A stretch of DNA of 64,000 nt from the NCBI GenBank assembly GCA_965368975.1, contig CBDUPA010000001.1, forward strand, positions 288,001-352,000, read 5' to 3'. Source of the DNA: an uncultured bacterium. Its GTDB lineage: Bacteria; Acidobacteriota; Thermoanaerobaculia; Multivoradales; JAHZIX01. Within the stretch, counting starts at the first letter, position 1. Each line of letters starts with the position of its first letter. The notes below the pieces were generated by a model. That model ran no database searches and was not told the DNA's origin. It worked only from the letters and a program-made list of their open reading frames with translations. Below are positions 33,597 to 46,234 of this stretch, piece by piece. Made by a program: the position numbers and the translations under genes.

Positions 33597-35144
33597 TCAC
33601 CGCCACCAAACCGACCGCAACCCCAACAACTCCCCGCTCGGATAGTTGACATACCCCTCGACGTCGGCCGGCATGACCGCGAAGTTCACGCGCGTATACA
33701 GGCTGATGTAGGGCAGGTCCTCTTTCAGGATCTCCTGCACCTCCAGGTAGATCGGCATCCTTTCTTCCGGCAACGTCAACCGTGCCCCTTCTTCGACCAG
33801 CGCGTCGAAGCGTGCATTCCGGTAGTGGCCGCGATTCTGCCCATTCGGTGGTAGTGCGTCCGAGTGCAGCACCAGGCGGTAGATGTTGGGGTCGATGATG
33901 CCGGTGCGGATTAGGGAGAAGAGCTGGAAGTTGCCCTTGCGTACGTCGTCGTAGAAGGTGGCGAATTCGTAGGAACGGATCTCGATGCCGATCCCGGCTT
34001 GCGCGGCCATGGACTGCAGGATCTGCGCTTGCAGCACATAGGGCTCGCTGGTCGACGTCTTGTAGGTCACCGTGAAGCGCATCTCGGGCCCGTCGCCGTC
34101 CGGGTCGGGATAGCCGGCTTGGTCGAGCAGGCGCTTGGCGGTCTCGACGTCGTAGGGGATGGGTTCGAGGTCCGGGTGCCGTGCCCACAGGCCGGGGGGG
34201 ATCATCGTCTCGCCGACCACGCCGAGGCCGTTCCACAGCGTGTCGACGAGCTTCTGCCGGTCCAGGCTGAGCGCCAAGGCGTGCCGCACTCGAGGGTCGC
34301 CGAGAATCGGGTCTTCGAGGTTGACGCCGAGATAGGCGTAGTTGGCGCCCGGGCTCTCGACGACCTGGAAGTGTGGGTTGCGGCGGAAGAGCGGCACGGC
34401 GTCAGTGGAGAGGTCGTTGACCACCAGGTGGACGGAGCCTTTGAGCAGTTCGAGCGCGCGCACAGTGGCGTCGGGGACTTCGCGCAGGAGGACGCGGTCT
34501 AGATGCGGGCGGCCTTGCCAGGCGGCGTCGAAGGCGGCGAGTTCGACTGTCTCGGGGGTGCGCGAGACGAAGCGGAAAGGGCCGGTACCGATGGGGTGAT
34601 CGTTGAGCTGTCCGGAAGTGCTGCCGGCGGGGATGATGCCTTGACCCGGGGTGAATTCCGGCAGCAGGGCGCCGAAGGGTTCGCGCAGGAAGACATCAAC
34701 CGTCAGCTCGTCCACGGCTTCCAGGCGCTCGACCGTTTCGAAGCTGGCGCGCTTGGTGGTGGCGACGGTGTCGTCGAGGATGGAGCCGTAGGTCCACACG
34801 ACGTCCGCAGCGCTGAACGGGCGCCCGTCATGGAAGGTGACACCGGGACGCAAGTAGAAGCGGTAGCGGCGACCGTCGTCGAGGATCTCCCAGGCGGTGG
34901 CGAGGTCGGGGACCAGGTTGCCGGCGGGATCCTTGGTGACCAGGCCGTTGTAGATCAGCTGGAATACTCGTGCGGACGCCTGGTCGGCACCGACGCGCGG
35001 GTCGAGATGCAGGGGAGCGGAGGACTGGGCGACGACGAGACGGTTGTCGATCGGGGGCGCGGGACGGCGATCGTCGAGGCAGGCGGTGGTCAGGAGGGTG
35101 AGGAGGACGAGGGAGGCAGCGACGAGGGACGTTGAGGTGCGCAT
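33597..35144 (-). CDS. Peptide/nickel-type ABC transporter substrate-binding lipoprotein (family 5)
   Basis: Lipobox LTTAC; PDLATAW, LRPGVTFHDG, IGTGPF, VRHAL. Confidence 0.9.
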   Translation of the reverse strand: MRTSTSLVAASLVLLTLLTTACLDDRRPAPPIDNRLVVAQSSAPLHLDPRVGADQASARVFQLIYNGLVTKDPAGNLVPDLATAWEILDDGRRYRFYLRPGVTFHDGRPFSAADVVWTYGSILDDTVATTKRASFETVERLEAVDELTVDVFLREPFGALLPEFTPGQGIIPAGSTSGQLNDHPIGTGPFRFVSRTPETVELAAFDAAWQGRPHLDRVLLREVPDATVRALELLKGSVHLVVNDLSTDAVPLFRRNPHFQVVESPGANYAYLGVNLEDPILGDPRVRHALALSLDRQKLVDTLWNGLGVVGETMIPPGLWARHPDLEPIPYDVETAKRLLDQAGYPDPDGDGPEMRFTVTYKTSTSEPYVLQAQILQSMAAQAGIGIEIRSYEFATFYDDVRKGNFQLFSLIRTGIIDPNIYRLVLHSDALPPNGQNRGHYRNARFDALVEEGARLTLPEERMPIYLEVQEILKEDLPYISLYTRVNFAVMPADVEGYVNYPSGELLGLRSVWWR

Positions 35145-35246
35145 GACGTGGCGGGATGCTAGCACTCCAGCAAATCCACCTAGCCCCCGCCGCCGTACCC
35201 AGATAGGATCAGCCACACGTATCCCGCAATCCGATTCTGGAACCCG

Positions 35247-35987
35247 ATGACGCACGCTTTCGACTCCGCTCCTGCTCGCCACCGCCCCGCCCGCCGGGCC
35301 GTGCTGCTCTTTGCCCGCCGGCCGGGTGAGGAGGCGCGCCGCAAGCACTTGACGCGGGGCAAGCGGCTGTTCGAGCTGGGACGCGACCGGGTCTTGACGG
35401 CGGCGGCGCAGCTACCGGACGTGACACCGGTGTTGCTCGGCGATCCGGGGGACGCGACATTGCCCGCCGGGACGCTCGTGCTGGCGCAGCGAGGCCGTGG
35501 CTTCGGGGCGCGGCTCGGCAACGGGCTCGAGGATGCCTTCGCGCTCGGCTTCGACGAGGTCGTGGCCGTCGGTCTCGACGCGCCGTCGCTGTCGGACGAG
35601 CATCTCGACGCGGCGTTCCGTGCGCTGCGCGAGGCGCCGGTGGTGCTCGGGCCTGCCGCGGACGGTGGCGTCTATCTGCTCGGCCTCCGTGCCGAAGCGG
35701 ATCGGGTCGCGCTCTGGCGTGGCGTGCGCTGGCAGACGCGTTTCGTCCTGCGGCAACTGCAGCTCAACGCGCCAGCTCGAGTGCTGCCGCAAGTCTTGAC
35801 CGATGTCGACCAGCGCGCCGACGCCCAGCGTCTCGCCCGTTTCCTGGTGCGCGACTTCGAGTTGCGTGTGGTCTTGGAAGCGCTCTTGGCGCGGCCGTGG
35901 ACCCCGGCTCTCTCTTTCCTGCCGGCGCCGCTCTGGTGCCCCCACCTGCCGCTCTCGCGACGCGGACCTCCCGCGCGGGTTGCCTGA
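35247..35987 (+). CDS. DUF2064 (TIGR04282-like) GT-A/nucleotidyltransferase-fold protein with C-terminal RGPP
   Basis: QRGRGFGARL, VGLDAPSL, VLGPAADGGVYLLG, VRWQT, LTDVD; ends ..LPLSRRGPPARVA. Confidence 0.85.
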   Translation: MTHAFDSAPARHRPARRAVLLFARRPGEEARRKHLTRGKRLFELGRDRVLTAAAQLPDVTPVLLGDPGDATLPAGTLVLAQRGRGFGARLGNGLEDAFALGFDEVVAVGLDAPSLSDEHLDAAFRALREAPVVLGPAADGGVYLLGLRAEADRVALWRGVRWQTRFVLRQLQLNAPARVLPQVLTDVDQRADAQRLARFLVRDFELRVVLEALLARPWTPALSFLPAPLWCPHLPLSRRGPPARVA

Positions 35988-36049
35988 ATCCGCGCTGTTT
36001 CGACCGTCTGACGCATTCCCTCTTTCCGCTATCCGTCGACCTGGAGGTC
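35965..36049 (+). promoter_or_regulatory. Putative anti-SD/SD translational switch for the TonB receptor
   Basis: gacctcc (35965-35971, within the G-P-P codons) is the reverse complement of SD ggaggtc (36043-36049). Confidence 0.45.
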
Positions 36050-36054
36050 TTCCC

Positions 36055-39042
36055 ATGCTCGCATCCGTGGGCCGTCCGGCCCTTCGTCTCGCCCTGTCGT
36101 CTCTCCTGACTCTCGCCGCTATCCTGCTGCTCAGTGTGCCAGCCATGGCGCAAGCTAATCTCGAAGTCACCGTGGTCGACGCCGCCGACGGCGCACCGCT
36201 GCCCGGCGTTGCGGTCGCCCTGTTCAACGATGCCACCGGTTACCGCGTCGAGCAGGTGTCTAATGTGCAGGGCAAGACGCGGTTCTCGGCCTTGACCACC
36301 GGTGATGGCTACCAGCTGGTGACGCAGCCGTTCGACGGCTATCGCGAGGCGCGCGCGGAGGCGATCACGTTGCGCACGAACTTTGACAGCGCGGTGACGT
36401 TGCGGCTGCCGCGGGTCGAGACCTTCAGCGACGACGTGCTGGTGACCGCCGAGCGCCAGCTGGTGGCGATGAACACGGTCAACGCGGAGGTGTCGTCGAC
36501 GCTGGTGTCGGAAGAGCTGGAGCTGCTGCCCATCGAGGGCCGGGACTTGACGCGCTCGCTCTACCGGCTGCCCAACGTGACGCAGGCGACCGGCTTCTAT
36601 CCGGAGGCGCCGAACGTGTCGATCAACGGCGCCAACTCGTTGTTCACCAACTACCTGATCGACGGTCTGGACAACAACGAGAACTTCCTCGGCGGTCAGA
36701 AGTTCGCGCTGCCGCTGGGTGCGGTGCAGGACGTGACGGTGCTGACCAGCACTTACAGCGCCGAGTTCGGGCGCACCGGCAATGGTGTCTTCAACGTCAC
36801 CAGCCGTTCGGGCAGCAACGATCTGCGCGGTGAGGCGTTCTACCTCAGCCGGCCCGGTGCCAAGTGGGATTCGTCGTCACCGTTCGCCGGGCGCGACCTG
36901 AGCGGCAATGCGGTGAAGGACGGTTTCCGTCGTGATCAGCTGGGCTTCTCGCTCGGTGGTGCGCTGACCCAGGACCGCACCTTCTTTCATCTCAACGTGG
37001 AAGGCACGCGCGACGAGAAGGACAACCTGCTCAACGTGCCGGCGCTGGGTGTCAACGAGACGGTGCCGGGCGAGAACGAGTTCCTCTACGCCTCGGCACG
37101 CTTCGACCACCGTCTCACCGAGTCGTTGCAGACGTCGCTGCGCGTCAACTGGGGTGATGTCGACATCGAGCGCCAGGGGGGCGGGCTCGACGGCGGCGTG
37201 ACGTTCCCGTCGGCCGGCAACTTCCAGGACCGCGACTCACTGCTCGCCGCCTTTCGCACCAGCTGGGTGGGTCGTGACTTCGTCAATGAGGCGAATGTGC
37301 AGTTCAGCCGCTTTCGCTGGAACTATGGCCGGCCGATCGACGAGGGACCGCAGGTGACGGTGCTCGGGGCCGATGGCCAGACGGTGGCGGTGCTCGGGCA
37401 TCCGGGCTACATCTTCGACGACATCGAGGAGACCTTCCAGGTACAGGAGAAGGCGTCGTTCCTGCTCGGCAATCACACGCTGAAGCTGGGGGCGGAGCTG
37501 ATCTCGTCGGACTTCGAGCTGACCGGTGGTGGCAACGTCAACGGCAACTACCTGGTGCAGCTGAGCGCCGCGCAGGAGGCGGCGCTGCGGGCGCGGAACC
37601 TGGGCTCGTCGCTGAACGTCAACGACATCCCGTCGAACGTCGACGTGCTGCGCTACGACGTCGAGCTGCAGCCGAAGGCGTTCGGCGAGCGGCAGGACTA
37701 CTGGAGCGCCTACGTCGAGGACCTGTGGTCGGTGTCGCCGCGCCTGAATGTGACGCTCGGCCTGCGCTACGACTACGACAGCCTGAGCGAGGGCGGTGGT
37801 GCCAGTGGCGATTCCGACAACTTCGCGCCGCGGCTGGCGCTCAACTACCAACTCGATGACCGCTCGACGCTGCGCGCCGGCTTTGGCGTTTTCTACGAGA
37901 AGGTTGCCTATGCGATCTACAGCGATGCGCTGCAGCAGAACTCGACGTCGGCGGGCTTCCAGTGGCAGGTGCAGCAACTGATCGACCTCGGCTTGCTGCC
38001 GGCGGGCACGAATCTGGGCGACGTGCTGTTCAACGGCAACCTGGTGGCCAGCTTCGACGACGTGCCCTACCTCGGTGGTCCGACACCGGCCGAGGTGCAG
38101 GCGCAGCGCGAGGCCGTGTTCAGCAATGAGCGGCGTATCCTCAACCCGAACGGCTACGACAACCCGGTGACCGAGCAGTACTCGCTCGGCTACCAGCGGC
38201 GGTTGCGTTCGGACATGCTGTTCTATGTCGACCTGATTCACACGCGTTCCTACAACCTGCTACGCCTGCGCAATCTGAACGCGGCGGCGCCGTATCCGCT
38301 CGACGATCCGAACAATGTGGTGGTGCGCACGCCGGCCGAGGCGGACGCGACGCGACCGGTGCCGCTGGTGGACGGTGGTGCACGCAACATCGTGATGACG
38401 GAGTCGGAAGGCGAGGCGCGCTACAAGGCAGCGACGTTCAGCTTCCTGAAGGACCGCACGTCGAAGAGCCCGTTCAGCGTCCGCTTGTCGTACACCTGGT
38501 CGCAGCTGGAGAACGACACGGACGACATCAACTTCCGGGCCCAGGACGCCAACAATTACGCCGCCGAGTGGGGGCCGTCGGTGAATGACCGCGAGCACGT
38601 GGTCAGCGGTTTGTTGCAGTACTACGTGACGCCGGATCTGTCGGTGTCGTTGGCGGGGCTGTGGCAGAGCGGTCAGCCGATCAACCGCATTCCGGACGCG
38701 CGTCTGTACGGCACGACGGACTTGAACGGCGATGGTCGCTCGTTCGGTGACGCCTATGTGGGCAACAGCGACCGCTACCCGGGAGCGTCACGCAATGTCG
38801 ACCGGCTACCGTCGTCGGAAGTGTGGGACCTGGGTATCCAGTACCGGCTGCCGATGGCCGGCAAGCGGATCGAGCTGCGGCTGGATGTGTTCAATCTGTT
38901 CAACGAGACGAATCTCTCGGGCTTCAGCAACAATGCGACGCAGAGCAACCAGATCCAGATCGGGCCGCCGGGGTCGGGGATCGAGTTCAAGAATGCGGGG
39001 CCGCCGCGGCAGTTCCAGATTGGGGTGTCGTATGCGTTCTGA
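36055..39042 (+). CDS. TonB-dependent receptor (Oar-like, N-terminal carboxypeptidase-regulatory-like domain)
   Basis: Signal peptide; NYLIDGLDNN, YSAEFGRTGNGVFNVTSRSG, LGLRYD, NFAPRL; C-terminal Phe. Confidence 0.92.
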   Translation: MLASVGRPALRLALSSLLTLAAILLLSVPAMAQANLEVTVVDAADGAPLPGVAVALFNDATGYRVEQVSNVQGKTRFSALTTGDGYQLVTQPFDGYREARAEAITLRTNFDSAVTLRLPRVETFSDDVLVTAERQLVAMNTVNAEVSSTLVSEELELLPIEGRDLTRSLYRLPNVTQATGFYPEAPNVSINGANSLFTNYLIDGLDNNENFLGGQKFALPLGAVQDVTVLTSTYSAEFGRTGNGVFNVTSRSGSNDLRGEAFYLSRPGAKWDSSSPFAGRDLSGNAVKDGFRRDQLGFSLGGALTQDRTFFHLNVEGTRDEKDNLLNVPALGVNETVPGENEFLYASARFDHRLTESLQTSLRVNWGDVDIERQGGGLDGGVTFPSAGNFQDRDSLLAAFRTSWVGRDFVNEANVQFSRFRWNYGRPIDEGPQVTVLGADGQTVAVLGHPGYIFDDIEETFQVQEKASFLLGNHTLKLGAELISSDFELTGGGNVNGNYLVQLSAAQEAALRARNLGSSLNVNDIPSNVDVLRYDVELQPKAFGERQDYWSAYVEDLWSVSPRLNVTLGLRYDYDSLSEGGGASGDSDNFAPRLALNYQLDDRSTLRAGFGVFYEKVAYAIYSDALQQNSTSAGFQWQVQQLIDLGLLPAGTNLGDVLFNGNLVASFDDVPYLGGPTPAEVQAQREAVFSNERRILNPNGYDNPVTEQYSLGYQRRLRSDMLFYVDLIHTRSYNLLRLRNLNAAAPYPLDDPNNVVVRTPAEADATRPVPLVDGGARNIVMTESEGEARYKAATFSFLKDRTSKSPFSVRLSYTWSQLENDTDDINFRAQDANNYAAEWGPSVNDREHVVSGLLQYYVTPDLSVSLAGLWQSGQPINRIPDARLYGTTDLNGDGRSFGDAYVGNSDRYPGASRNVDRLPSSEVWDLGIQYRLPMAGKRIELRLDVFNLFNETNLSGFSNNATQSNQIQIGPPGSGIEFKNAGPPRQFQIGVSYAF

Positions 39043-40375
39043 GATCTTGCTGGGCCGCCGGAGGGGGAGTGCTGCGGGCGGTGCTCCAACTCACGGCGCT
39101 GCGCGCCGCTCAAACAGAAGCGCTCCGTCCTCACACTCCCTCTCCGGCTCCTCACTTCTTGGGGTGATCACTGGGATTCTGCTGTCGACTCTCGTGCTGG
39201 CTTGCGGCCCAGCTCAGGATGAGGGGTTGACGGGGGAGGACGTCTTGGGGCTGCCTTGGGAGCAGGTGGTGGAGGAGGCGCGGGGGGCTTCGCTGACGCT
39301 GGGGATGTGGACGGGGGATCCGTACATCAACGCCTACATCCAGGACTACGTCACACCGGCGCTGCGCGCGCGCTATGACATCGAGCTGGACGTGGTGAGT
39401 GCGCAGGGCAACGAGGTCGTCAACCTGCTGTTGACCGAGATCGAGGCGGGCAAGGCGACGAGTGAGCTCGACTTCGTGTGGATCAACGGCGAGACCTTCT
39501 ACCAGCTGCGCCAGATCGATGCGCTGCTCGGGCCGTTCACGGACAAACTGCCGTCGGCCCAGTACATCGACTACGACAACCCGTTCATCGGCACCGACTT
39601 CCAGCAGCCGATCGAGGGCTACGAGGCGCCGTGGGGCAATGTGCAGCTGGCCTTGATCTACGACGCTGAACGCGTCGAGACGCCGCCGCGCGACGCCGAG
39701 GAACTGGCCGCGTGGGTGCAGGCGAATCCAGGACGCTTCACCTTCGATACCTCCTTCACCGGCATGACCTTCCTGAAGTCGCTGCTGATCGACTTCGCCG
39801 GTGGCCCCGGGTCGATGGACGGGCCGTTCGACGAGGCCACCTACCAGCGGGCGAGTGCACAGTTGTTCGCCTACCTGAAGGAGCTGCAACCGTTCCTGTG
39901 GCGCGAAGGCTCGACCTTCCCGGCGCAGGTGGCGGAGCTGCACCAGCTGTTCGCCCATGGCGAAGTCGACTTCACGATGAGCAACAACGACGGCGAGGTG
40001 GACAACAAGGTGCTGCAGGGACTGCTGCCGCTGTCGTCGCAGGCGTACGTGCTCGACTCCGGGACGATCCAGAACAGTCACTACTTCGGCCTGGTGCGTC
40101 GTGGTGGCAGTACGGCGGCGGCGTTGGTGGCGATCGACTTCCTGCAGTCCCCGGAGGCCCAGTACGAGAAGCTGAAGCCGGCGGTGTGGGGGGACGGCAC
40201 GGTGCTGGACGTCGAGCGCTTGCCGCCAGAGTGGCAGGAGAAGTTCCGCAACGTACCGCAGCGCGAGCGCGCACCGCGGCGCGAAGAGATCCGCGAGAGG
40301 GCACTCGAGGAACCGGCGGCGGAGGTGATGATCCGACTCTACGACGACTTCCGCCGCGAGCTACTGGGGGCCTGA
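39032..40375 (+). CDS. YnjB-like ABC transporter substrate-binding lipoprotein (start uncertain)
   Basis: LVLAC lipobox; DFVWINGETF, EAPWG, FTGMTFLK, IDFLQSPEAQYEK. Confidence 0.85.
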   Translation: MRSEILLGRRRGSAAGGAPTHGAARRSNRSAPSSHSLSGSSLLGVITGILLSTLVLACGPAQDEGLTGEDVLGLPWEQVVEEARGASLTLGMWTGDPYINAYIQDYVTPALRARYDIELDVVSAQGNEVVNLLLTEIEAGKATSELDFVWINGETFYQLRQIDALLGPFTDKLPSAQYIDYDNPFIGTDFQQPIEGYEAPWGNVQLALIYDAERVETPPRDAEELAAWVQANPGRFTFDTSFTGMTFLKSLLIDFAGGPGSMDGPFDEATYQRASAQLFAYLKELQPFLWREGSTFPAQVAELHQLFAHGEVDFTMSNNDGEVDNKVLQGLLPLSSQAYVLDSGTIQNSHYFGLVRRGGSTAAALVAIDFLQSPEAQYEKLKPAVWGDGTVLDVERLPPEWQEKFRNVPQRERAPRREEIRERALEEPAAEVMIRLYDDFRRELLGA

Positions 40376-40380
40376 CTCCG

Positions 40381-41274
40381 TTGGCGTCGCGCACTCAATC
40401 TCGCAACGGGTCGCGCAATAGGGCTCGAGCGCTCGCCGTCCCGGATGTCGTGGGACTTGGGCTGCTCGGGGTCGTGGTGGCGGCGCCGGTGGTGTTCAGT
40501 CTGGTCTACGCAGCGCTGTACAGCCTGGGTTTGACGGGACTGCTGAGTCAGGGCTTTACCCTGGAGCATTGGCGGGCAGTGCTGGGCAGCGGCGAGATCT
40601 GGGCGGCGTTCGGCCTGTCGCTCTACGTGGCGGTGAGCACGATGGTGCTGACGTTCGGCCTGGCGCTGGCGTTGGCGCTCGGTTTGCGCGAGCCGCTGCG
40701 CCACGGGCCGTTGTCGACCTTGATCTACCTGCCGCTGGCGTTGCCCGGGGCGGTGGCGGCGTTCTTCACGCTGCAGATGCTGTCGGGTGGTGGCTTGCTG
40801 GCGCGGTTGCTGGCGGCGGTCGGGGTGGTGGAGGAACCCTCGGCGATGGTGTCCCTGGTGCACGATCGGTTGGCGGTCGGCATCGTGGTGGCGCACGTGA
40901 TCGCGGCGGTGCCGTTCTTCACGCTGCTCTTCGTGCAGCTCTACGATACCGAGCGGGTGGGGGAGTTGCGACGCCTGGCGGTGTCGCTGGGAGCCAGTCG
41001 CTGGCAAACGGTGCTACGCGTCGCGATGCCGGTATTGCTCTATCGAGCGTCGACCAACCTGGTGCTCTACTTCATTTGGGTCTTGGGGTCGTTCGAGATT
41101 CCGTTGCTCTTGGGTCGTCAAGCACCGCAGATGCTGTCGGTCGTCACCTACCGCAAGTTCTCGATGTTCGACCTGATGGAGAAGCCACAGGCCTACGTCG
41201 TGGCTCTGCTCTACACCCTGCTGGTGTTCGTGATCCTGGGAACAGTGTTCGGCCGCCAGGAAGCCCGTTCGTGA
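40381..41274 (+). CDS. ABC permease (YnjC N-half-like)
   Basis: TM helices; FTLEHW, LAVSLGASRWQTVLRVAMP, SFEIPLLLG. Confidence 0.85.
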   Translation: MASRTQSRNGSRNRARALAVPDVVGLGLLGVVVAAPVVFSLVYAALYSLGLTGLLSQGFTLEHWRAVLGSGEIWAAFGLSLYVAVSTMVLTFGLALALALGLREPLRHGPLSTLIYLPLALPGAVAAFFTLQMLSGGGLLARLLAAVGVVEEPSAMVSLVHDRLAVGIVVAHVIAAVPFFTLLFVQLYDTERVGELRRLAVSLGASRWQTVLRVAMPVLLYRASTNLVLYFIWVLGSFEIPLLLGRQAPQMLSVVTYRKFSMFDLMEKPQAYVVALLYTLLVFVILGTVFGRQEARS

Positions 41275-41422
41275 GGCAGAACCCCGCTGGCGGCGCCGCG
41301 ATGGTAGGAGCGGGTCATCGTGGCAGATGTTGCAGATATTGCCATGTTGGCTTGGGCGTGCCATGATTTGTTGGGCGTGGATTTTGCTCGCAAAGAAGGA
41401 TCACTTGAGAATGGAGGCCAGT

Positions 41423-41689
41423 ATGATCGGCGCAACATCCCACCAAGTTCGTCTGAGCGGCCAGGGCCGAATTGTCATTCCCTCGGAGCTGCGGCGTCAG
41501 CTCGACCTGGAAAAAGGAGAGACGCTCGTCGCCCGTGCCGAGAGCGGCAGGTTGATCCTGGAGAAGCGTGGCAGTATCCTGCAGCGTCTCAAGGCACGCT
41601 TCAGGGCTGTGCCGGCGGATATCCGTCTCTCCGAAGAACTCATCGCCGATCGACGGCAGGACGCCGCACGGGAGCGTGAGGATGGTTGA
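41423..41689 (+). CDS. vapB: AbrB/MazE-type antitoxin (VapB-like)
   Basis: LSGQGRIVIPSELRRQLDLEKG; SEELIADRR; GGAGG SD. Confidence 0.88.
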   Translation: MIGATSHQVRLSGQGRIVIPSELRRQLDLEKGETLVARAESGRLILEKRGSILQRLKARFRAVPADIRLSEELIADRRQDAAREREDG

Positions 41690-42089
41690 AGTCGCTGCGG
41701 ATCGTGAGCGCGTCTACGTCCTCGATGCATCCGCGCTTCTAGCCATGCTGCGGGAAGAACCCGGAGGCGAGATCGTCGAGGCCGTTATCGAGAACTCCTT
41801 GCTCTGCGCCGTCAATTGGTCCGAGGTCGTCCAGAAGGCGATCGCCTACGATCTCGATGCGGAGGCAATCCGGGCCGACCTCGAAGCGCTTGGGTTGCAG
41901 ATCGTTCCTTTTACCGCAGAAGACGCCGAGACCGCCGCCGAGCTTTGGCGGGTGACGCATACCCACGGCCTGTCGCTCGGTGATCGGGCTTGTCTCGCGC
42001 TCGCCGGGCGTCAGAAGCTGCCCGCGTTGACGGCCGACCGAGCGTGGGGCGGCCTGCCGATCGATCTGTCGATCGAGTGCTTGCGTTGA
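41682..42089 (+). CDS. vapC: VapC PIN-domain toxin
   Basis: VLDASALLA, VNWSEV, LSLGDRACLALA, LTADRAW; overlaps the antitoxin gene. Confidence 0.9.
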   Translation: MVEVAADRERVYVLDASALLAMLREEPGGEIVEAVIENSLLCAVNWSEVVQKAIAYDLDAEAIRADLEALGLQIVPFTAEDAETAAELWRVTHTHGLSLGDRACLALAGRQKLPALTADRAWGGLPIDLSIECLR

Positions 42090-42931
42090 CCTCGACCTCC
42101 GACGGTGGGGGTCACAGAGGACGGAGTAGCAAGAAGTTTCTTCCCATCCGTTCCGCCTCTTCGTGGCTTGTAGGTGCACTGTGCATCTTCCCCCTCCTCT
42201 TCCTGGCCGCCCTCTCCCTGTCCCATCGCTGGCAAGTCCCCCACATCCTGCCCACCGGCTTCGATCCCAGCCGCTGGCAAGAAGTCCTCACCGGCCAAGG
42301 CCAGCTGGGTGAAAGCTTGGCGCTCTCCCTGACCCTCTCCCTCAGCGTCGCGACCCTGAGCACCGTCGCCGGCTACCTGACCTCGCGCGCCATCGCCTAC
42401 TCCCCGCACCGGCGTCAGCTCTTGTTGCTGGCCTACATCCCCTTCGCCTTCTCCCCGGTCATCCTCGGCACCTGCCTGCTCTTCCTGTTCATCAAGCTCA
42501 ACCTCGCCGGCACCGTCCCCGGCGTCATCCTGGCGCAGACCCTCTTCTCCTACGGCTTCGCCATCGTCTTCTTCATGAGCTTCTGGACGCCGCAGAAGAA
42601 GGCCTACGAAGACCTCGTGCATACCCTCGGCGGCAGCACCTGGGACGCCTACCGCCACGCGCTGTTACCCTTGTCCACCGGTATGCTCCTCGTCTGCTTC
42701 TTCCAATGCTTCCTGATCTCCTGGTTCCACTACGGCATCACCCTGCTCGTCGGTTCCGGCAAGATCAAGACCCTGCCGCTCAAAGTCTTCGACAGCATCC
42801 GCGAAGCCAACCCGTACTACGCCGCCCTCGCCGCCTGCCTGCTCGTCCTGCCGCCCTTCCTCCTGCTGCTGGTCAACAAACACTTCCTGCCCGAACCTCT
42901 GCGTGACCCTGGGGAAGGGGCCCGAGTATGA
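42086..42931 (+). CDS. ABC permease (YnjC C-half-like)
   Basis: TM helices; YEDLVHTLGGS, TLLVGSGKIKTLPL; TTG start overlaps the vapC stop (start uncertain). Confidence 0.82.
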   Translation: MTSTSDGGGHRGRSSKKFLPIRSASSWLVGALCIFPLLFLAALSLSHRWQVPHILPTGFDPSRWQEVLTGQGQLGESLALSLTLSLSVATLSTVAGYLTSRAIAYSPHRRQLLLLAYIPFAFSPVILGTCLLFLFIKLNLAGTVPGVILAQTLFSYGFAIVFFMSFWTPQKKAYEDLVHTLGGSTWDAYRHALLPLSTGMLLVCFFQCFLISWFHYGITLLVGSGKIKTLPLKVFDSIREANPYYAALAACLLVLPPFLLLLVNKHFLPEPLRDPGEGARV

Positions 42932-43701
42932 GCGAGCGCGTCCTGCTGTGCGTCGACGGCCTGCGCAAGGCCTTCGCCGGCCAAGGTAGCAACGCGAGTG
43001 AAGCTGTGTTGCACGACGTCACCTTCGACCTGCACCAGCACGAGACCCTCGCCGTCGTCGGTCGCTCGGGCAGCGGCAAGACCACCCTGCTCAGAATCCT
43101 CGCCGGCCTCGAAGCTCCCGACGCCGGCAGGTGTGTCCTGGGAGGGCGCGACCTGGCAGGGGTAGCACCTCAGCAGCGTGGCGTGCTCTATCTCTACCAA
43201 GAGCCCCTGCTCTTCCCCCACCTCGACGTGCGCGCCAACCTCGCCTTCGGCCTGCGCTTGCGCAAGGTGCCCGCTGCCGAGGCACGCCAGAGAGTCGACG
43301 CCATGCTGCGCGAGCTCGACCTCAGCGAGCATGCGGCCAAAGCCCCGCACCAGCTCTCCGGCGGTCAGCGCCAGCGCGTCTCCTTCGGTCGCGCGCTGCT
43401 CGTCGAGCCGCGCCTGCTGCTGCTCGACGAGCCCTTCGGTGCCCTCGACGCCGACACCCGCACCCGCATGCAAGACCTCTTCCGCCGCATCGCCGAGCGG
43501 TACCGCATCTCGGCCCTCTTCGTCACCCACGACCTCAAAGAAGCGATCCTCATGGGCGACCGCGTCGCGCACCTGCAAGCCGGCCGCCTGCGCCTCTTCG
43601 AACACCTCGAAGAGATGGTCGCCGACCCCGACCTCGGTGTGCGCCAAGAACTCGACTTCTGGACATCCCTACCTCGACCGACGCAAGGAGACGCACCATG
43701 A
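42928..43701 (+). CDS. ABC transporter ATP-binding protein
   Basis: GRSGSGKTT, LSGGQRQR, LLLDEPF, VTHD. Confidence 0.93.
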   Translation: MSERVLLCVDGLRKAFAGQGSNASEAVLHDVTFDLHQHETLAVVGRSGSGKTTLLRILAGLEAPDAGRCVLGGRDLAGVAPQQRGVLYLYQEPLLFPHLDVRANLAFGLRLRKVPAAEARQRVDAMLRELDLSEHAAKAPHQLSGGQRQRVSFGRALLVEPRLLLLDEPFGALDADTRTRMQDLFRRIAERYRISALFVTHDLKEAILMGDRVAHLQAGRLRLFEHLEEMVADPDLGVRQELDFWTSLPRPTQGDAP

Positions 43702-45110
43702 CCGCTGCCCTCGAGTCCTCGTCCGCAACTCGGCTGACCGCTGTCGTCGTCGCCAACGGTCTCGAGGGGCTGCGGGAGTGCTTTCCCTGTTACGGGATTC
43801 CGGCTGCGGCGGGCGGGCAGACTCTGCAGGTGGACTACCGCTTCCAAGAAGTCGAGGCCGGCTTCCGTCTCGACCTCACCGGTGCTGATCTGCTGATCGT
43901 GCCCAACGGTAGCGACCACGTCGCGATGCTCGGTGTACGCGACCAAGTGCGCGCTTTCCTCGACGCTGGCGGTGCCGTCTTCTGCTTCGACGGCTGGTTC
44001 ACCGACTGGGTCCCCGGCCACCGCTGGCGTCACGACAACAGCAAGGCCACCCGCGACATCCGCTACCGCGTTGCCACCGACCGTCACGGCCTGTTCGATG
44101 GCATCGACCTCGACCCCTTCATCTTCCACCACGGCATCAGCGGCTGGTGGGCCTGTGGCGCCATCGAGCCGGCCGGAGGCGCCGACGTGCTGCTCGAAGA
44201 CACCTGGGGCCGCGCCATGGTCGTGCTCGACGAGACCACCACCCCCGGCTTGCTCGCGCTCACCGCCAGCGGTCCCCTGGCCGGCGCCCTGACCGACGAC
44301 GTGGGCGGTCCGGCTTTGGTGCCGCTGTATCACCGACTGTTGCACCGGGTCGCCGCGCACCGCGCCCGGCTCGATCACTGTCCGGGGGACCAGGTGCCCT
44401 CGCGGCCGGCGCGCGATGGTGCTTCCGACACCGACCCGTCCGCCAGGATCAACCACGACGCTCGTATCGGCGTGCTGTTCAACGGCGTCTGGTCGCAATA
44501 CGCCTTCGCCACCGCGCCCAAGTATCGCGGCCTCTACGACCTCGTCTACGTCCACGACCTGAGCTACGAACGCATTCGCCACCTCGACGCCCTCGTGGTC
44601 CCCTTCCAGAGCCACCAGCCGGCCATCACCGCGCGTCGAGAGGCGATCTACCGCTTCCTCGCCGACGGCAAGAAAGTCGCCGTCTTTGGTGATTCCGATA
44701 GCGACTGGATCGACGCCACCTGGGAGAGCCGCCCCGTCGACAACTACTGGTGGGTCACAGACCCGACGTCGCCGCCGATCAGCGATACCGACTACAGCCA
44801 CCCCGTCTATACCGGCCTGATCCCGCGCCATGCCTGCTGGCACGTGCACGGCGTCTACACGCAGGTGCCCGCCGAAGCCCGCGTCATCCAGCGCAACGAA
44901 GAAGGCGAATCGATCACCTGGCAGACCGAGGCCCACGGTGGCGTCCTCTTTGCCTCCACCCTCGACCCGATCGTCGAGCACGGCATCCAGCAGATCCGCC
45001 ACCTCGACAACTACTGCGACCGTCTCACCGCCTGGCTGTGCGGCACGACGCCTGGCGGTGCCTTCGCGCTCGACCCGGCCGTCTATGGCGTCGATCGCTT
45101 GGCCCTCTGA
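43698..45110 (+). CDS. Hypothetical protein with two tandem class I glutamine amidotransferase-like domains
   Basis: Parallel halves: DLLIVPNGSDH..VRAFLDAGGAV..HGLFDGI and DALVVPFQSHQ..IYRFLADGKKV..HPVYTGL..WHVHG..STLDP; ATG overlaps the ATPase stop. Confidence 0.65.
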   Translation: MTAALESSSATRLTAVVVANGLEGLRECFPCYGIPAAAGGQTLQVDYRFQEVEAGFRLDLTGADLLIVPNGSDHVAMLGVRDQVRAFLDAGGAVFCFDGWFTDWVPGHRWRHDNSKATRDIRYRVATDRHGLFDGIDLDPFIFHHGISGWWACGAIEPAGGADVLLEDTWGRAMVVLDETTTPGLLALTASGPLAGALTDDVGGPALVPLYHRLLHRVAAHRARLDHCPGDQVPSRPARDGASDTDPSARINHDARIGVLFNGVWSQYAFATAPKYRGLYDLVYVHDLSYERIRHLDALVVPFQSHQPAITARREAIYRFLADGKKVAVFGDSDSDWIDATWESRPVDNYWWVTDPTSPPISDTDYSHPVYTGLIPRHACWHVHGVYTQVPAEARVIQRNEEGESITWQTEAHGGVLFASTLDPIVEHGIQQIRHLDNYCDRLTAWLCGTTPGGAFALDPAVYGVDRLAL

Positions 45111-45184: not shown

Positions 45185-46234
45185 ATGAACGATCCCTTGG
45201 CAGTCCACCTAGCAGTCCAAACCGGCCCCTCCAAACTCGAACAGGCTGACTACGACCACTGCGAGTCGGTCTACTGGGTGTTCACCCAACTGTGCAACGA
45301 CGAGTGCGATCACTGCTACAACCTCAGCGGCCCGCGCGGCGCGACCCTCACGCTGGAGGAATGCCTGGCCATCGTCGCCAACCTGCCGTCGCGCATCGAC
45401 CGCCTGATCCTCTCCGGCGGCGAGCCACTGGCCGAGCGCAAGAAGCTCTACGCCATCCTCGACGCTGTGCGCGAGCGCTACGGCGACGCCACCCAGGTCA
45501 TGTTGCAGACCAACGGCGACCTGCTCAACGAGCAGCGCCTAGACGAGATCCTAGAGCGCGGCGTCACGCGCATCGACATCGCCTCCATCGACCGCTACCA
45601 CAAGAAGCAAGGCGAGCGAAGAGCGGACCTCGAAGCCCTCTTTCGCTCGCGCGGCATGGTCGACGACAACCCCGATCCGCTGATCACCAAGGACGACTAC
45701 CTCAAGCCCGACGCCGCCAGCTTCGGCTTCTGGGGCGCCACCGAAGACATGTGGCTGGGTGGCAACTGGGCGCGTGGCCGCGCGATGGAGACGGGGATCT
45801 GGAAGCGCGACGGCAGTCACAACTTCTGCGCCATCCTCAGCGGCGGCCGCGGCTTCCTCGGCGGCACCGACCTGCCGCAGGAGATCTCGATCCAGCTCTG
45901 GCGCATCAACCCGTGCTGCCCCGGCACCAAAGAGCCGATGGGCGATGCGCGCGTCGAGAAAGTGAGTGACGTGCTGCGCCGGGTGGCCCAGTCGCCGGTG
46001 TTCCAGAAGCTCAACACAGGCGATGCGTACGCACTCGGAGAAGCGCTCGAGAAGAGCGATGGCGTCGATCGTGCCTACGGCCTGCGCCGCGCGCTCGAAC
46101 TTGGCAACGTCTGCCTGTGGTGCGACGAGTTCTTCGACCGTCACTTCGACATGGCGACGCTCGCCGAGAAACCCGCCGCACCGATCCCGGAGGGGCAAGT
46201 GGTGGCGAAGCCGGTGCTACCCGTCCTCCGCTGA
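45185..46234 (+). CDS. Radical SAM enzyme with Cys-rich C-terminal (SPASM/twitch-like) region
   Basis: CNDECDHC, SGGEP, QTNG; C-terminal NFC..NPCC..CLWC. Confidence 0.9.
   Translation: MNDPLAVHLAVQTGPSKLEQADYDHCESVYWVFTQLCNDECDHCYNLSGPRGATLTLEECLAIVANLPSRIDRLILSGGEPLAERKKLYAILDAVRERYGDATQVMLQTNGDLLNEQRLDEILERGVTRIDIASIDRYHKKQGERRADLEALFRSRGMVDDNPDPLITKDDYLKPDAASFGFWGATEDMWLGGNWARGRAMETGIWKRDGSHNFCAILSGGRGFLGGTDLPQEISIQLWRINPCCPGTKEPMGDARVEKVSDVLRRVAQSPVFQKLNTGDAYALGEALEKSDGVDRAYGLRRALELGNVCLWCDEFFDRHFDMATLAEKPAAPIPEGQVVAKPVLPVLR

What the first reader, a model, noticed from the sequence alone, without database searches (positions are those of the whole stretch)
35247..36057. Enzyme-fold leader with RGPP arrest motif overlapping an anti-SD: candidate ligand-sensing ribosome-stalling switch for a TonB operon
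Seen: the DUF2064 protein has a Pro-rich tail ending RRGPP-ARVA (RGPP at 35961-35972), 67 nt before the TonB receptor ATG. The G-P-P codons contain gacctcc, exactly complementary to the receptor SD ggaggtc. The N-terminal PGxVKTRL motif typical of TIGR04282 enzymes is replaced by PGEEARRKHL. Known: RAPP/RGPP C-terminal motifs cause elongation arrest (ApdA/ApdP), and the DUF2946 leader CruR with such a motif controls a downstream TonB transporter operon in Bordetella. Inference: a whole GT-A-like domain acts as a co-translational metabolite sensor. A stalled ribosome would mask the anti-SD and switch on import genes, and ligand-induced folding would release it. I know of no description of this arrangement for DUF2064.
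Basis: partly seen in the sequence, partly recalled or inferred. Interest (0 to 1): 0.85.

Follow-up and report, generated by a model that had tools for sequence, protein, structure and literature searches.

The report
Enzyme-fold protein ending in ribosome-stalling motif
A full-size, cytoplasmic, enzyme-like protein encoded just upstream of an outer-membrane importer ends in the four-residue sequence RGPP, known to stall ribosomes, and this tail is kept at a fixed distance from the folded domain in over a hundred relatives, so the protein probably acts as a translation-stalling switch for the genes behind it.

Summary
ORF 35247-35987 is a DUF2064 protein ending RRGPP-ARVA. GACCTCC inside the G-P-P codons is the exact complement of the receptor's Shine-Dalgarno (SD) site.

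The main new result is comparative. Of the 150 nearest 50%-identity cluster representatives, 111 carry R[AG]PP in their last 25 residues and 23 more carry RPPP, RSPP, KAPP, HAPP, KSPP, KGPP or KGSP. The second-position residues are the ones mutagenesis found to permit arrest.

The 24 residues before the motif are unconserved, yet the distance from the domain's DxD to the Arg is 52 residues (range 47-57). Canonical DUF2064 proteins, including a paralog in this genome, keep PGxVKTRL and lack the motif.

The family is cytosolic and occurs in Acidobacteriota and Bacteroidota. It sits 50-120 nt upstream of same-strand genes. In 17 of 57 loci these are TonB-dependent receptors. Elsewhere they are ArsM-like methyltransferase, radical-SAM, AhpD-like, porin-like or binding-protein genes.

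The anti-SD pairing is predicted in this window but is neither conserved nor above shuffled controls across 34 loci. Ligand sensing is untested.

Verdict: a new variant of the CruR/ApdA arrest-leader class, with a folded enzyme-like sensor domain. I found no description in print.

The parts
35147..35246 (.). Divergent intergenic region; presumed promoter of the DUF2064-led operon
   Evidence: The upstream gene (SBP_bac_5) is on the minus strand. Its lipoprotein-like start (MRTSTSLVAASLV...) is read at 35146-35144 from the ORF translation. No sigma-70 consensus was found. The promoter is inferred only.
35247..35987 (+). DUF2064-fold leader/sensor ORF, 246 aa, ending RRGPPARVA*
   Evidence: Closest solved relative is 3CGX (profile E 1.7e-32; Foldseek E 6.2e-16).
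35295..35888 (+). Folded nucleotidyltransferase-like (GT-A/MobA-like) domain, residues 17-214
   Evidence: AlphaFold2 model with mean pLDDT 91.2. Blocks covering residues 11-210 score 91-98, and the last helix is 204-214. Structural neighbours are 3CGX, FbiD/CofC Rv2983 and 3-phospho-D-glycerate guanylyltransferase.
35889..35960 (+). Unconserved 24-residue tether (residues 215-238) between the last helix and the Arg of RGPP
   Evidence: pLDDT 63-66 with no secondary structure. No residue reaches 0.28 frequency at positions -24..-1, yet the length is fixed: D188 to R has a median of 52 and a range of 47-57, n=117.
35961..35972 (+). RGPP arrest core (cgc gga cct ccc). Expected stall has Pro241 (35967-69) in the P site and Pro242 (35970-72) in the A site
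   Evidence: Sequence. Conservation. The stall register is taken by analogy with ApdA/ApdP/CruR toeprints reported in PMC12992588. It was not measured here.
35964..35971 (+). GGACCUCC, complementary to the receptor's SD region
   Evidence: The minimum-free-energy (MFE) and centroid folds of 35930-36075 pair 35964-71 with 36043-50 (8 bp). This is not significant against shuffles.
35973..35995 (+). 9-bp GC-rich hairpin spanning the ARVA codons, the stop codon (in the loop) and the start of the intergenic region
   Evidence: Predicted in the MFE and centroid folds. Its 5' arm would lie inside a ribosome stalled at RGPP. It was not flagged as a terminator. Its function is unknown.
35988..36054 (+). 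67-nt intergenic region, 39% C and 21% G
   Evidence: There is no Rfam match at E<=1 in 35000-36300. The C>G skew would fit a Rho-utilisation site as in CruR, but the family-wide skew (0.09) equals that of the upstream coding sequence (0.08).
36043..36049 (+). Shine-Dalgarno GGAGGTC of the receptor gene, 5 nt before the ATG
36055..39042 (+). TonB-dependent receptor (CarboxypepD_reg + Plug + OMP_b-brl_4 barrel), 995 aa with a signal-like N-terminus
   Evidence: Orthologs at 51-72% identity lie downstream of motif-bearing DUF2064 genes in 7 other loci from two phyla.
39047..43701 (+). ABC importer: YnjB-family binding protein (PRK11622, 380 bits), two permeases and an ATPase. Start codons were not refined
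   Evidence: The same order, TBDR then YnjB-like binding protein then permease, occurs in L021.

Best explanation
The 246-aa protein is the first gene of an import operon and most likely works in cis as a translation-arrest leader with a large sensor domain.

Shown here:
- It is a cytosolic nucleotidyltransferase-fold (DUF2064) domain, residues 17-214.
- A disordered, unconserved tether of fixed length follows.
- Then comes the conserved core R-[G/A]-P-P, then 1-15 arbitrary residues and a stop.
- A same-strand gene follows 50-120 nt later in GC-rich genomes.

Inferred by analogy with ApdA, ApdP and CruR:
- The ribosome stalls with Pro241 in the P site and Pro242 in the A site.
- At that moment about 27 residues separate the peptidyl-transferase centre from the end of the last helix. 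The C-terminal helix or helices of the domain are therefore still in the exit tunnel.
- Completion of folding would pull on the nascent chain and release the arrest. A ligand bound at the remodelled N-terminal site (E29/K33 in place of G-x-x-K-T-R) may be needed to stabilise that folding.
- While the ribosome is stalled, the downstream TonB receptor and ABC importer genes are expressed. After release and termination they are shut off.

How the stall is transmitted is open. In this window it could free the SD from the GGACCUCC:GGAGGUCU helix, or it could block Rho on the C-rich spacer as shown for CruR.
For: Motif conservation:
- 111 of 150 nearest representatives have R[AG]PP in the last 25 residues (67 RGPP, 44 RAPP). 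Of the rest, 7 have RPPP, 4 RSPP, 6 KAPP, 2 HAPP, 1 KSPP, 1 KGPP, 3 KGSP, 2 LPPP and 1 PAPP. Twelve have no motif, and 7 of those are under 200 aa.
- The second-position spectrum (Gly and Ala dominant, Pro and Ser minor) matches the arrest-permissive spectrum from systematic mutagenesis and random screens (PMC12992588 section 7).
- On a quick tree built without the last 45 residues, RGPP and RAPP interchange at least 30 times while the motif persists.
- RGPP and RAPP are roughly threefold depleted in this genome's crude ORF set: 11 RGPP against 49 AGPP, and 28 RAPP against 106 AAPP.

Ruler:
- The distance from D188 to the Arg has a median of 52, a 5-95% range of 48-55 and a full range of 47-57 (n=117). 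The 24 preceding positions are unconserved.
- CruR shows the same kind of fixed spacing, and there it matters functionally (PMC9426467 passages).

Structure and localisation:
- The model has a confident domain at 17-214 and a disordered tail.
- No N-terminal hydrophobic segment was found in 0 of 111 family members.

Leader position:
- The upstream gene is divergent.
- 51 of 55 motif loci have a same-strand ORF of at least 100 codons starting within 260 nt.
- Canonical DUF2064 paralogs keep PGRVKTRL, lack the motif, and their stop codon is followed at once by the next gene's start.

SD masking in the window:
- An 8-bp helix appears in the MFE and centroid folds.
- CCT at the first Pro occurs in 10 of 44 GC-rich loci against an 8% local background (p=0.002, kin not independent). 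At the second Pro it occurs in 2 of 44.
Against: - No stalling, ligand or regulation has been measured for any member.
- Published mutagenesis found the Arg irreplaceable, so the KAPP, HAPP and NKGSP clades either stall by other rules or do not stall.
- RAPP alone is reported to be insufficient without a suitable upstream context (PMC12992588 discussion).
- Footprint-to-RBS pairing over 34 loci equals shuffled controls (mean 2.30 against 2.04), and no locus beat the shuffles. In the window the values are 8.5 against 4.4, with 6 of 25 shuffles reaching the observed value.
- The mean unpaired RBS probability rises only from 0.38 to 0.44 when the footprint is blocked.
- The fold of 35930-36075 is not more stable than shuffles (z -0.85).
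- No alignable or conserved intergenic structure was found.
- The intergenic C>G skew is no higher than in coding sequence across the family.
- Most active-site-like residues of the fold are retained (Q81, R82, G83, D111, P113, D139, G140, G141, D186, D188). The protein may therefore also, or instead, be a working enzyme.
- A fixed-length tail could also serve an intramolecular docking role.
Confidence: 0.6

Rival explanations
1. Arrest is real, but it is transmitted by Rho-dependent termination in the spacer, as shown for CruR, and not by SD unmasking. A ribosome stalled at RGPP keeps Rho off the C-rich RNA so that RNA polymerase reads into the receptor gene. Release then lets Rho terminate.
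For: The CruR mechanism is described in PMC9426467 (abstract and discussion passages). The window spacer is 39% C and 21% G. This route needs no SD, which would suit the Bacteroidota members. Direct SD pairing is not conserved.
Against: Across 51 loci the spacer C>G skew (mean 0.09) equals that of the upstream coding sequence (0.08). Spacers of 48-120 nt are shorter than CruR's 162 nt. Nothing was tested.
Confidence: 0.3
2. Arrest or pausing is real but constitutive. It slows the end of translation so that the domain can fold, assemble or stay coupled to the downstream genes. No ligand is sensed.
For: No ligand site has been demonstrated. The downstream genes are very diverse, which is hard to reconcile with a single ligand. 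The motif and the ruler would both be kept under this model too.
Against: Under this model the arrest would give no regulatory benefit, and I see no reason for it to be kept only in leader-positioned paralogs. The subfamily has a conserved, remodelled N-terminal site (E29 at least 90%, K33 invariant). That points to a specific binding function different from canonical DUF2064.
Confidence: 0.2
3. The tail acts at the protein level only. R-x-P-P would be a docking, autoinhibitory or degradation signal of a working enzyme of the arsenosugar-type pathway. Any stalling would be incidental.
For: Core residues of the fold are retained. Gene neighbourhoods rich in ArsM-like, radical-SAM and TIGR04169 genes match the context after which NCBI names TIGR04282. 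28 of 111 tails end in Ala-Ala, against 67 of 2901 (2.3%) in the genome's crude ORF set, which hints at a proteolysis signal. A fixed tail length would also fit intramolecular docking.
Against: The tail is modelled as disordered at pLDDT about 63-66, with no docking. The allowed second-position residues are those that permit ribosome arrest. RGPP is reported as the most excluded tetrapeptide across phyla, including Acidobacteriota and Bacteroidota (PMC12992588). The residues after the motif vary in number (1-15) and in sequence.
Confidence: 0.12

Closest known systems
CruR (DUF2946) of Bordetella pertussis, leader of the bfrG TonB-dependent transporter operon (PMC9426467: abstract and passages read; arrest shown in vitro in PMC12992588 section 14)
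   Same: It is the first gene of an operon with a TonB-dependent transporter. It has a C-terminal RAPP a few residues before the stop. The spacing between the sensing element and RAPP is conserved. The proposed release is by ligand-induced co-translational folding, and the stall keeps the downstream genes on.
   Different: CruR is a 145-aa exported protein with a CXXC copper site. Here the sensor is a 215-residue cytosolic nucleotidyltransferase fold with no signal peptide and a single, unconserved Cys. There is no DUF2946 match. The partner operons differ, and the coupling route is unknown.
ApdA / ApdP / ApcA RAPP-type arrest peptides and SecM (PMC7897499 and PMC10951233 seen as search listing and abstract only; PMC12992588 sections 7, 14, 15 read)
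   Same: They share the R-A/G-P-P core near the C-terminus, a variable adjacent sequence, and a regulated gene downstream.
   Different: Those are small secreted or membrane 'monitoring substrates' released by the Sec or YidC pulling force, and they control localisation machinery. This family has no localisation signal.
RAPP/RGPP-containing small proteins upstream of TonB-dependent receptors, surveyed in PMC12992588 (section 13 passages)
   Same: The survey covers proteins under 300 aa with C-terminal RAPP/RGPP and a TonB receptor downstream. This family would fall inside its search space.
   Different: The paper states that almost all such TonB-linked uORF products have signal sequences. Its main text contains no 'DUF2064', 'arsen', 'methyltransferase', 'radical SAM' or 'glycosyltransferase'. 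Its supplements could not be opened and may list members.
Canonical DUF2064 / TIGR04282 proteins and PDB 3CGX
   Same: They share the fold and most core motifs: QRG..G.R, G.D.P, GP..DGG, W, and D.D.
   Different: Canonical members keep P..G.VKTRL and have no R[AG]PP. In this order, the start of their next gene follows the stop codon at once. The window protein scores below the TIGR04282 cutoff.
Arrest-peptide force-profile experiments, in which a folding domain tethered about 25-40 residues from an arrest motif releases the stall, in some cases only with ligand (recalled from the von Heijne laboratory literature; not read here)
   Same: The geometry is the same: about 27 residues from the last helix to the P site.
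   Different: Those are engineered constructs. This would be a natural system built on the same principle.

Membership tests
RAPP/RGPP-type ribosome arrest leaders (ApdA/ApdP/CruR class) | R-[A/G]-P-P core within a few residues of the C-terminus | tested here: met
   RGPP at residues 239-242 of 246. In the family, 1-15 residues follow the motif, most often 3-6.
RAPP/RGPP-type ribosome arrest leaders (ApdA/ApdP/CruR class) | Core conserved among homologs while the adjacent upstream sequence varies | tested here: met
   111 of 150 representatives have the core. Positions -24..-1 have a maximum residue frequency of 0.28.
RAPP/RGPP-type ribosome arrest leaders (ApdA/ApdP/CruR class) | Encoded directly upstream of, and on the same strand as, the regulated gene(s) | tested here: met
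   The window has a 67-nt spacer before the receptor. 51 of 55 motif loci have a same-strand ORF of at least 100 codons starting within 260 nt.
RAPP/RGPP-type ribosome arrest leaders (ApdA/ApdP/CruR class) | N-terminal signal peptide or transmembrane segment (typical, not universal) | tested here: not met
   Hydropathy of the first 45 residues: 0 of 111 members reach 1.8 (15-residue window). The window protein's value is -0.17. No dedicated signal-peptide predictor was available.
RAPP/RGPP-type ribosome arrest leaders (ApdA/ApdP/CruR class) | Elongation arrest with the third residue in the P site, abolished by Arg-to-Ala | not testable with these tools
   This needs in vitro translation or toeprinting, or ribosome profiling. 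No RNA run was listed for the locus.
DUF2064 (Pfam PF09837) | Score above the Pfam gathering threshold | tested here: met
   80.3 bits against 25.8, E 1.3e-22.
TIGR04282 'arsenosugar biosynthesis glycosyltransferase' (NCBIfam) | Score above the curated cutoff | tested here: not met
   84.4 bits against 134. Only profile positions 71-188 of 189 match.
TIGR04282 'arsenosugar biosynthesis glycosyltransferase' (NCBIfam) | N-terminal P-x-x-G-x-x-K-T-R-L nucleotide-binding-type motif | tested here: not met
   The motif is replaced by PGEEARRKHL. The subfamily consensus is AR.P..EA..K.L. That the canonical motif binds nucleotide is recalled, not tested.
CruR / DUF2946 | DUF2946 domain with a CXXC copper-binding motif | tested here: not met
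   No DUF2946 hit in Pfam. The sequence has one Cys (C230) and no CXXC.
SecM/MifM-type SD-sequestering mRNA switch | A stem between RNA covered by the stalled ribosome and the downstream SD, conserved among homologs | tested here: inconclusive
   The window has an 8-bp helix in the MFE and centroid folds. However, 6 of 25 footprint shuffles pair as much, and the 34-locus mean equals shuffles. CCT at the first Pro is enriched only in a subset.

The most novel reading that the evidence does not exclude
A large bacterial family (at least 130 clusters at 50% identity, spanning Acidobacteriota and Bacteroidota) has turned a complete nucleotidyltransferase-fold domain into a co-translational metabolite sensor. 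The domain is held on a tether of about 27 residues from an R[A/G]PP arrest site. Ligand-dependent completion of its folding would pull the nascent chain and release the ribosome, switching off whatever operon lies behind it. Those operons encode TonB receptors, ABC importers, porin-like proteins, or ArsM-like, radical-SAM and AhpD-like enzymes. The released sensor may then be cleared through an Ala-Ala C-terminus. This would be a natural counterpart of engineered arrest-peptide force sensors. It would also be the first cytosolic, enzyme-derived source of the pulling force that PMC12992588 names as an open question.
Probability: 0.35. Interest if true: 0.9.

Novelty: new variant of a known kind. 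Interest (0 to 1): 0.75.

Why it matters
Known RAPP/RGPP arrest leaders are small exported or membrane proteins. The latest survey (PMC12992588, discussion) explicitly asks what supplies the releasing force when the regulated genes are unrelated to protein export.

This family offers a concrete case. It has a confidently modelled cytosolic domain, a tether of fixed length, the strongest known arrest cores, and hundreds of natural sequence variants.

It also re-annotates part of DUF2064. Members that automated pipelines would label as putative arsenosugar glycosyltransferases may be cis-regulatory sensors.

It links TonB receptors, YnjB-type and PhnS/PstS-type importers, and ArsM-like/radical-SAM clusters under one control element. 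This gives a handle on their unknown substrate.

Finally, the KAPP and NKGSP clades may reveal arrest cores outside the rule that the Arg is irreplaceable.

Tried and rejected
- Conserved SD masking. I folded the region from 45 nt before the P site to 18 nt past the start in 34 loci, with and without the ribosome footprint blocked, and with 25 footprint shuffles each. There was no enrichment, so I rejected it as a family-wide mechanism and kept it as a possibility for this window only.
- Conserved intergenic structure. RNAalifold on 13 of the 14 ArsM-linked spacers gave no alignable signal and 0 predicted pairs. The other gene groups listed were not run.
- Rut-like C>G skew as a family feature. 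The spacer mean of 0.09 matches coding sequence at 0.08, so it is not distinctive.
- Known RNA families. There were no Rfam matches at E<=1 in 35000-36300.
- Promoter and terminator scan. No promoter-like site was found. One terminator-like site inside the ORF (35893-35909) is no more than the shuffles give.
- The TonB receptor as the universal partner. Rejected: it is first downstream in 17 of 57 loci.
- ArsM-like, radical-SAM(L026-type) and 378-aa proteins elsewhere in this genome. tblastn found none at E 1e-8.
- Expression data. No RNA holder was listed for 34900-37400.
- Careful phylogeny. Only the quick tree finished within the time limit, and many forks have low support.
- Literature. 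Full-text searches for 'DUF2064' found 0 papers. Searches for 'TIGR04282', 'arsenosugar biosynthesis glycosyltransferase' and 'selenodomain-associated transferase' found 4 papers, 3 listed, and none concerns arrest by title or abstract. Supplements of PMC12992588 and PMC9426467 were closed and may list family members.
- Rows dropped. L034 gave no tblastn hit and was not analysed. L040 and L077 are duplicates of L021 and L022. L050 runs off its contig. L081 looks frameshifted or divergent. Only 32 of the 80 matches had their tails read.

Full report
THE OBSERVATION

The + strand ORF 35247-35987 encodes 246 residues ending LPLSRRGPPARVA. RGPP is encoded by cgc gga cct ccc at 35961-35972, and the stop is at 35985-87. 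After a 67-nt spacer comes GGAGGTC (36043-49) and then the ATG (36055) of a 995-aa TonB-dependent receptor with CarboxypepD_reg, Plug and barrel domains. GACCTCC at 35965-71 is the exact complement of the SD heptamer.

The ORF is a genuine DUF2064 member (PF09837, 80.3 bits). It falls below the TIGR04282 cutoff (84.4 against 134), and only the C-terminal two thirds of that profile match. The one slip is that the 67 nt run from the stop codon, not from RGPP.

IS RGPP CONSERVED?

Yes. A word-indexed search gave eight relatives down to 42% identity, and all eight end in RGPP plus 3-7 residues. The canonical DUF2064 proteins in the same list have no such tail and keep P..G.VKTRL.

An exhaustive HMMER search of 1.84 billion cluster representatives gave 11,005 hits at E<=0.001, and the best 150 were returned. 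Their tails break down as follows:
- 111 of 150 carry R[AG]PP in the last 25 residues (67 RGPP, 44 RAPP).
- 27 carry a related core: RPPP 7, RSPP 4, KAPP 6, HAPP 2, KSPP 1, KGPP 1, KGSP 3, LPPP 2, PAPP 1.
- 12 have none, and 7 of those are shorter than 200 aa and probably truncated.

Only the top 150 could be inspected, so the share of all DUF2064 proteins that carry the motif is unknown.

The second-position spectrum (Gly and Ala dominant, Pro and Ser minor) is the spectrum that systematic mutagenesis of ApdA/ApdP and random screens found to permit arrest. The same work found the Arg irreplaceable (PMC12992588, section 7).

A quick maximum-likelihood tree was built after removing the last 45 residues. 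It needs at least 30 RGPP/RAPP interchanges and places the 15 canonical sequences together. This was the quick search only, and many forks are weak.

In this genome's crude set of 2,901 long ORFs, RGPP and RAPP are about threefold rarer relative to AGPP and AAPP than the Arg/Ala ratio predicts: 11 against 49, and 28 against 106.

A MOLECULAR RULER

The AlphaFold2 model was built from an alignment of 35 motif-bearing members that I had selected. Its mean pLDDT is 91.2. The fold is confident through helix 204-214, and the tail from about 218 is at pLDDT 63-66 with no secondary structure.

Across 124 representatives of at least 200 aa with an [RKH][AGSP]PP tail, the 24 positions before the Arg show no residue above 0.28 frequency. 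Yet the distance from the conserved Asp (D188) to the Arg has a median of 52, a 5-95% range of 48-55 and a full range of 47-57 (n=117). The number of residues after the motif is free (1-15).

With Pro241 in the P site, about 27 residues separate the end of the last helix from the peptidyl-transferase centre. The domain's C-terminal helix or helices would therefore still be in the exit tunnel at the stall. In engineered systems this is the geometry in which folding pulls on an arrest peptide (recalled, not read here). CruR shows a similarly fixed CXXC-to-RAPP spacing whose alteration impairs regulation (PMC9426467).

WHAT KIND OF PROTEIN IS IT?

The closest solved structure is 3CGX, a DUF2064 'putative nucleotide-diphospho-sugar transferase' (profile E 1.7e-32; Foldseek E 6.2e-16). 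Next come FbiD/CofC-type guanylyltransferases that act on phospho-acids.

The subfamily retains QRG, G.D.P, GP..DGG, W162 and D186/D188. It replaces the N-terminal G..KTRL with a conserved E29...K33. There is no signal-like segment in 0 of 111 members.

The same genome has a canonical paralog on contig C18 with PGRVKTRL and no R[AG]PP.

WHERE THE FAMILY OCCURS AND WHAT FOLLOWS IT

Among 61 genomes of the same order, 56 have a DUF2064 match. I read the tails of 32 of the 80 matches. Eighteen carry R[AG]PP, so at least 19 genomes carry it when the window's own genome is counted. Fourteen are a second type with a CPRT..LL..W tail, in which the next gene starts at or just after the stop codon.

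A scan of species-representative genomes added 48 loci. By their record titles these come from:
- Acidobacteriota: Thermoanaerobaculia, Polarisedimenticolia and Holophagales.
- Bacteroidota: Flavobacteriaceae, Chitinophagales, Saprospiraceae and Hymenobacter.
- One 'Deltaproteobacteria' MAG.

In 57 non-redundant motif-bearing loci, the first downstream gene is as follows:

| First downstream gene | Loci |
|---|---|
| ArsM-like SAM methyltransferase | 14 |
| Radical-SAM protein (two are radical-SAM/ArsM fusions) | 9 |
| Receptor of the window's type, 51-72% identical across two phyla | 8 |
| SusC/RagA-type TonB receptor | 9 |
| TIGR04169 AhpD-like protein | 7 |
| Unannotated secreted protein of 378 or 413 aa, followed by a PhnS-like binding protein | 7 |
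| PstS-family binding protein | 1 |
| PhnS-like binding protein | 1 |
| Unresolved | 1 |

The ArsM-like proteins score below the NCBIfam cutoffs (346 of 500, and 210 of 263). TonB receptors are therefore frequent partners (17 of 57) but not the defining ones. Of the 20 TonB-linked loci, 17 have R[AG]PP, one has RSPT, one has NKGSP and one is unclear.

In the window, the receptor is followed by a YnjB-family binding protein, two permeases and an ATPase. The same order occurs in L021. The window genome has no ArsM-like or L026-type radical-SAM gene. The upstream neighbour is divergent, so the DUF2064 gene heads its transcription unit.

HOW WOULD A STALL BE TRANSMITTED?

In the window, the MFE and centroid folds of 35930-36075 pair GGACCUCC (35964-71) with GGAGGUCU (36043-50). 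They also place a 9-bp hairpin across the stop codon. A ribosome stalled at 35967-72 would cover both 5' arms.

The evidence for this route is weak:
- The fold is no more stable than shuffles (z -0.85).
- Shuffling the 30-nt footprint gives as much pairing to the RBS in 6 of 25 trials.
- Over 34 loci with an SD-like start picked by rule, footprint-to-RBS pairing averages 2.30 against 2.04 for shuffles.
- Only 13 of 55 loci have CCT at the first Pro.
- In GC-rich loci, CCT at the first Pro (10 of 44) exceeds the 8% local background (p=0.002, relatives not independent). At the second Pro it is 2 of 44. This suggests that an anti-SD-like CCUCC is favoured in a subset.
- The spacers do not align and give no consensus structure.
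- There is no Rfam match.

The CruR route, in which the stalled ribosome blocks Rho, fits the C-rich window spacer (39% C, 21% G). However, the family-wide skew is no higher than in coding sequence. The coupling step is therefore unresolved.

COMPARISON WITH WHAT IS KNOWN

RAPP/RGPP arrest peptides (ApdA, ApdP, ApcA) and the CruR leader of a TonB transporter operon are established.

A 2025 survey reports C-terminal RAPP/RGPP in small proteins upstream of TonB receptors, copper genes and other genes. It states that nearly all the TonB-linked ones have signal sequences. It lists the source of the releasing force outside secretion as an open question. Its main text does not mention DUF2064, arsenic, methyltransferases or radical SAM.

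Full-text searches for DUF2064 and TIGR04282 found nothing relevant. Supplements could not be opened, so individual members may already be tabulated there.

I therefore class this as a new variant of a known kind. It has the same arrest core and leader logic, but the sensor is a complete cytosolic enzyme-fold domain on a fixed tether.

VERDICT

- That this is a conserved arrest-type leader family is well supported by sequence evidence. I put it at about 0.6 as a functional regulator.
- Ligand-dependent folding release is plausible but untested (about 0.35).
- The anti-SD mechanism is possible for this locus and is not general.

Noticed in passing
Family tails (proteins). Not in the window's own tail, which ends ARVA: 28 of 111 motif-bearing representatives end in Ala-Ala, often LAA or AAA. 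This compares with 67 of 2,901 (2.3%) crude long ORFs of this genome. The ending resembles an ssrA-like ClpXP degradation signal (recalled). It may mean that released sensor protein is removed. Relatedness was not corrected for.
   Followed up: partly
P0094, P0100, P0107, P0108, P0114, P0142 (…[FY]QKAPP); P0130, P0148, P0156 and loci L053, L064, L066, L069 (…[FY]NKGSP): Two lineage-specific tail variants replace the Arg with Lys, at the same position relative to the domain. On the quick tree, KAPP falls within a 99%-supported group and KGSP forms one group with 83% support. Published mutagenesis found the Arg irreplaceable, so these may be new arrest cores or decayed ones.
   Followed up: partly
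Window 36055-39042 and loci L056, L058, L059, L065, L068, L074, L081, L049, L021: The receptor is 51-57% identical between Acidobacteriota and Bacteroidota copies, and each copy sits behind a DUF2064 gene. This suggests that leader and receptor travel together, possibly by horizontal transfer.
   Followed up: no
L022, L047, L055, L061 (378 aa); L039, L045, L048 (413-429 aa): A secreted protein family with no Pfam or NCBIfam match lies directly after the leader and before a PhnS-like binding protein. From its sequence pattern it may be a porin, but that is a guess.
   Followed up: partly
L052:3778-6267 and L073 (about 830 aa): Single ORFs fuse a radical-SAM/SPASM-like domain with an ArsM-like methyltransferase, directly after the leader.
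   Followed up: no
L059, about 2192-2764 on the minus strand: A second DUF2064-like match lies divergently, just upstream of the RSPT-tailed copy.
   Followed up: no
Window 45185-46234: A radical-SAM ORF of 349 aa follows the ABC importer after an unannotated ORF 43131-45110 that may be spurious. It gives only weak NCBIfam matches and is not the L026 type.
   Followed up: no
G000 contig C18:15368-15850 (minus strand): The canonical DUF2064 paralog (PGRVKTRL, CPRT..LL..W tail) is followed right after its stop codon by a gene beginning KVLSAEAM..VD..A. The same arrangement was seen in 14 relatives. The next gene looks like an NAD(P)H-hydrate repair enzyme, but that is from memory and was not tested.
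   Followed up: no
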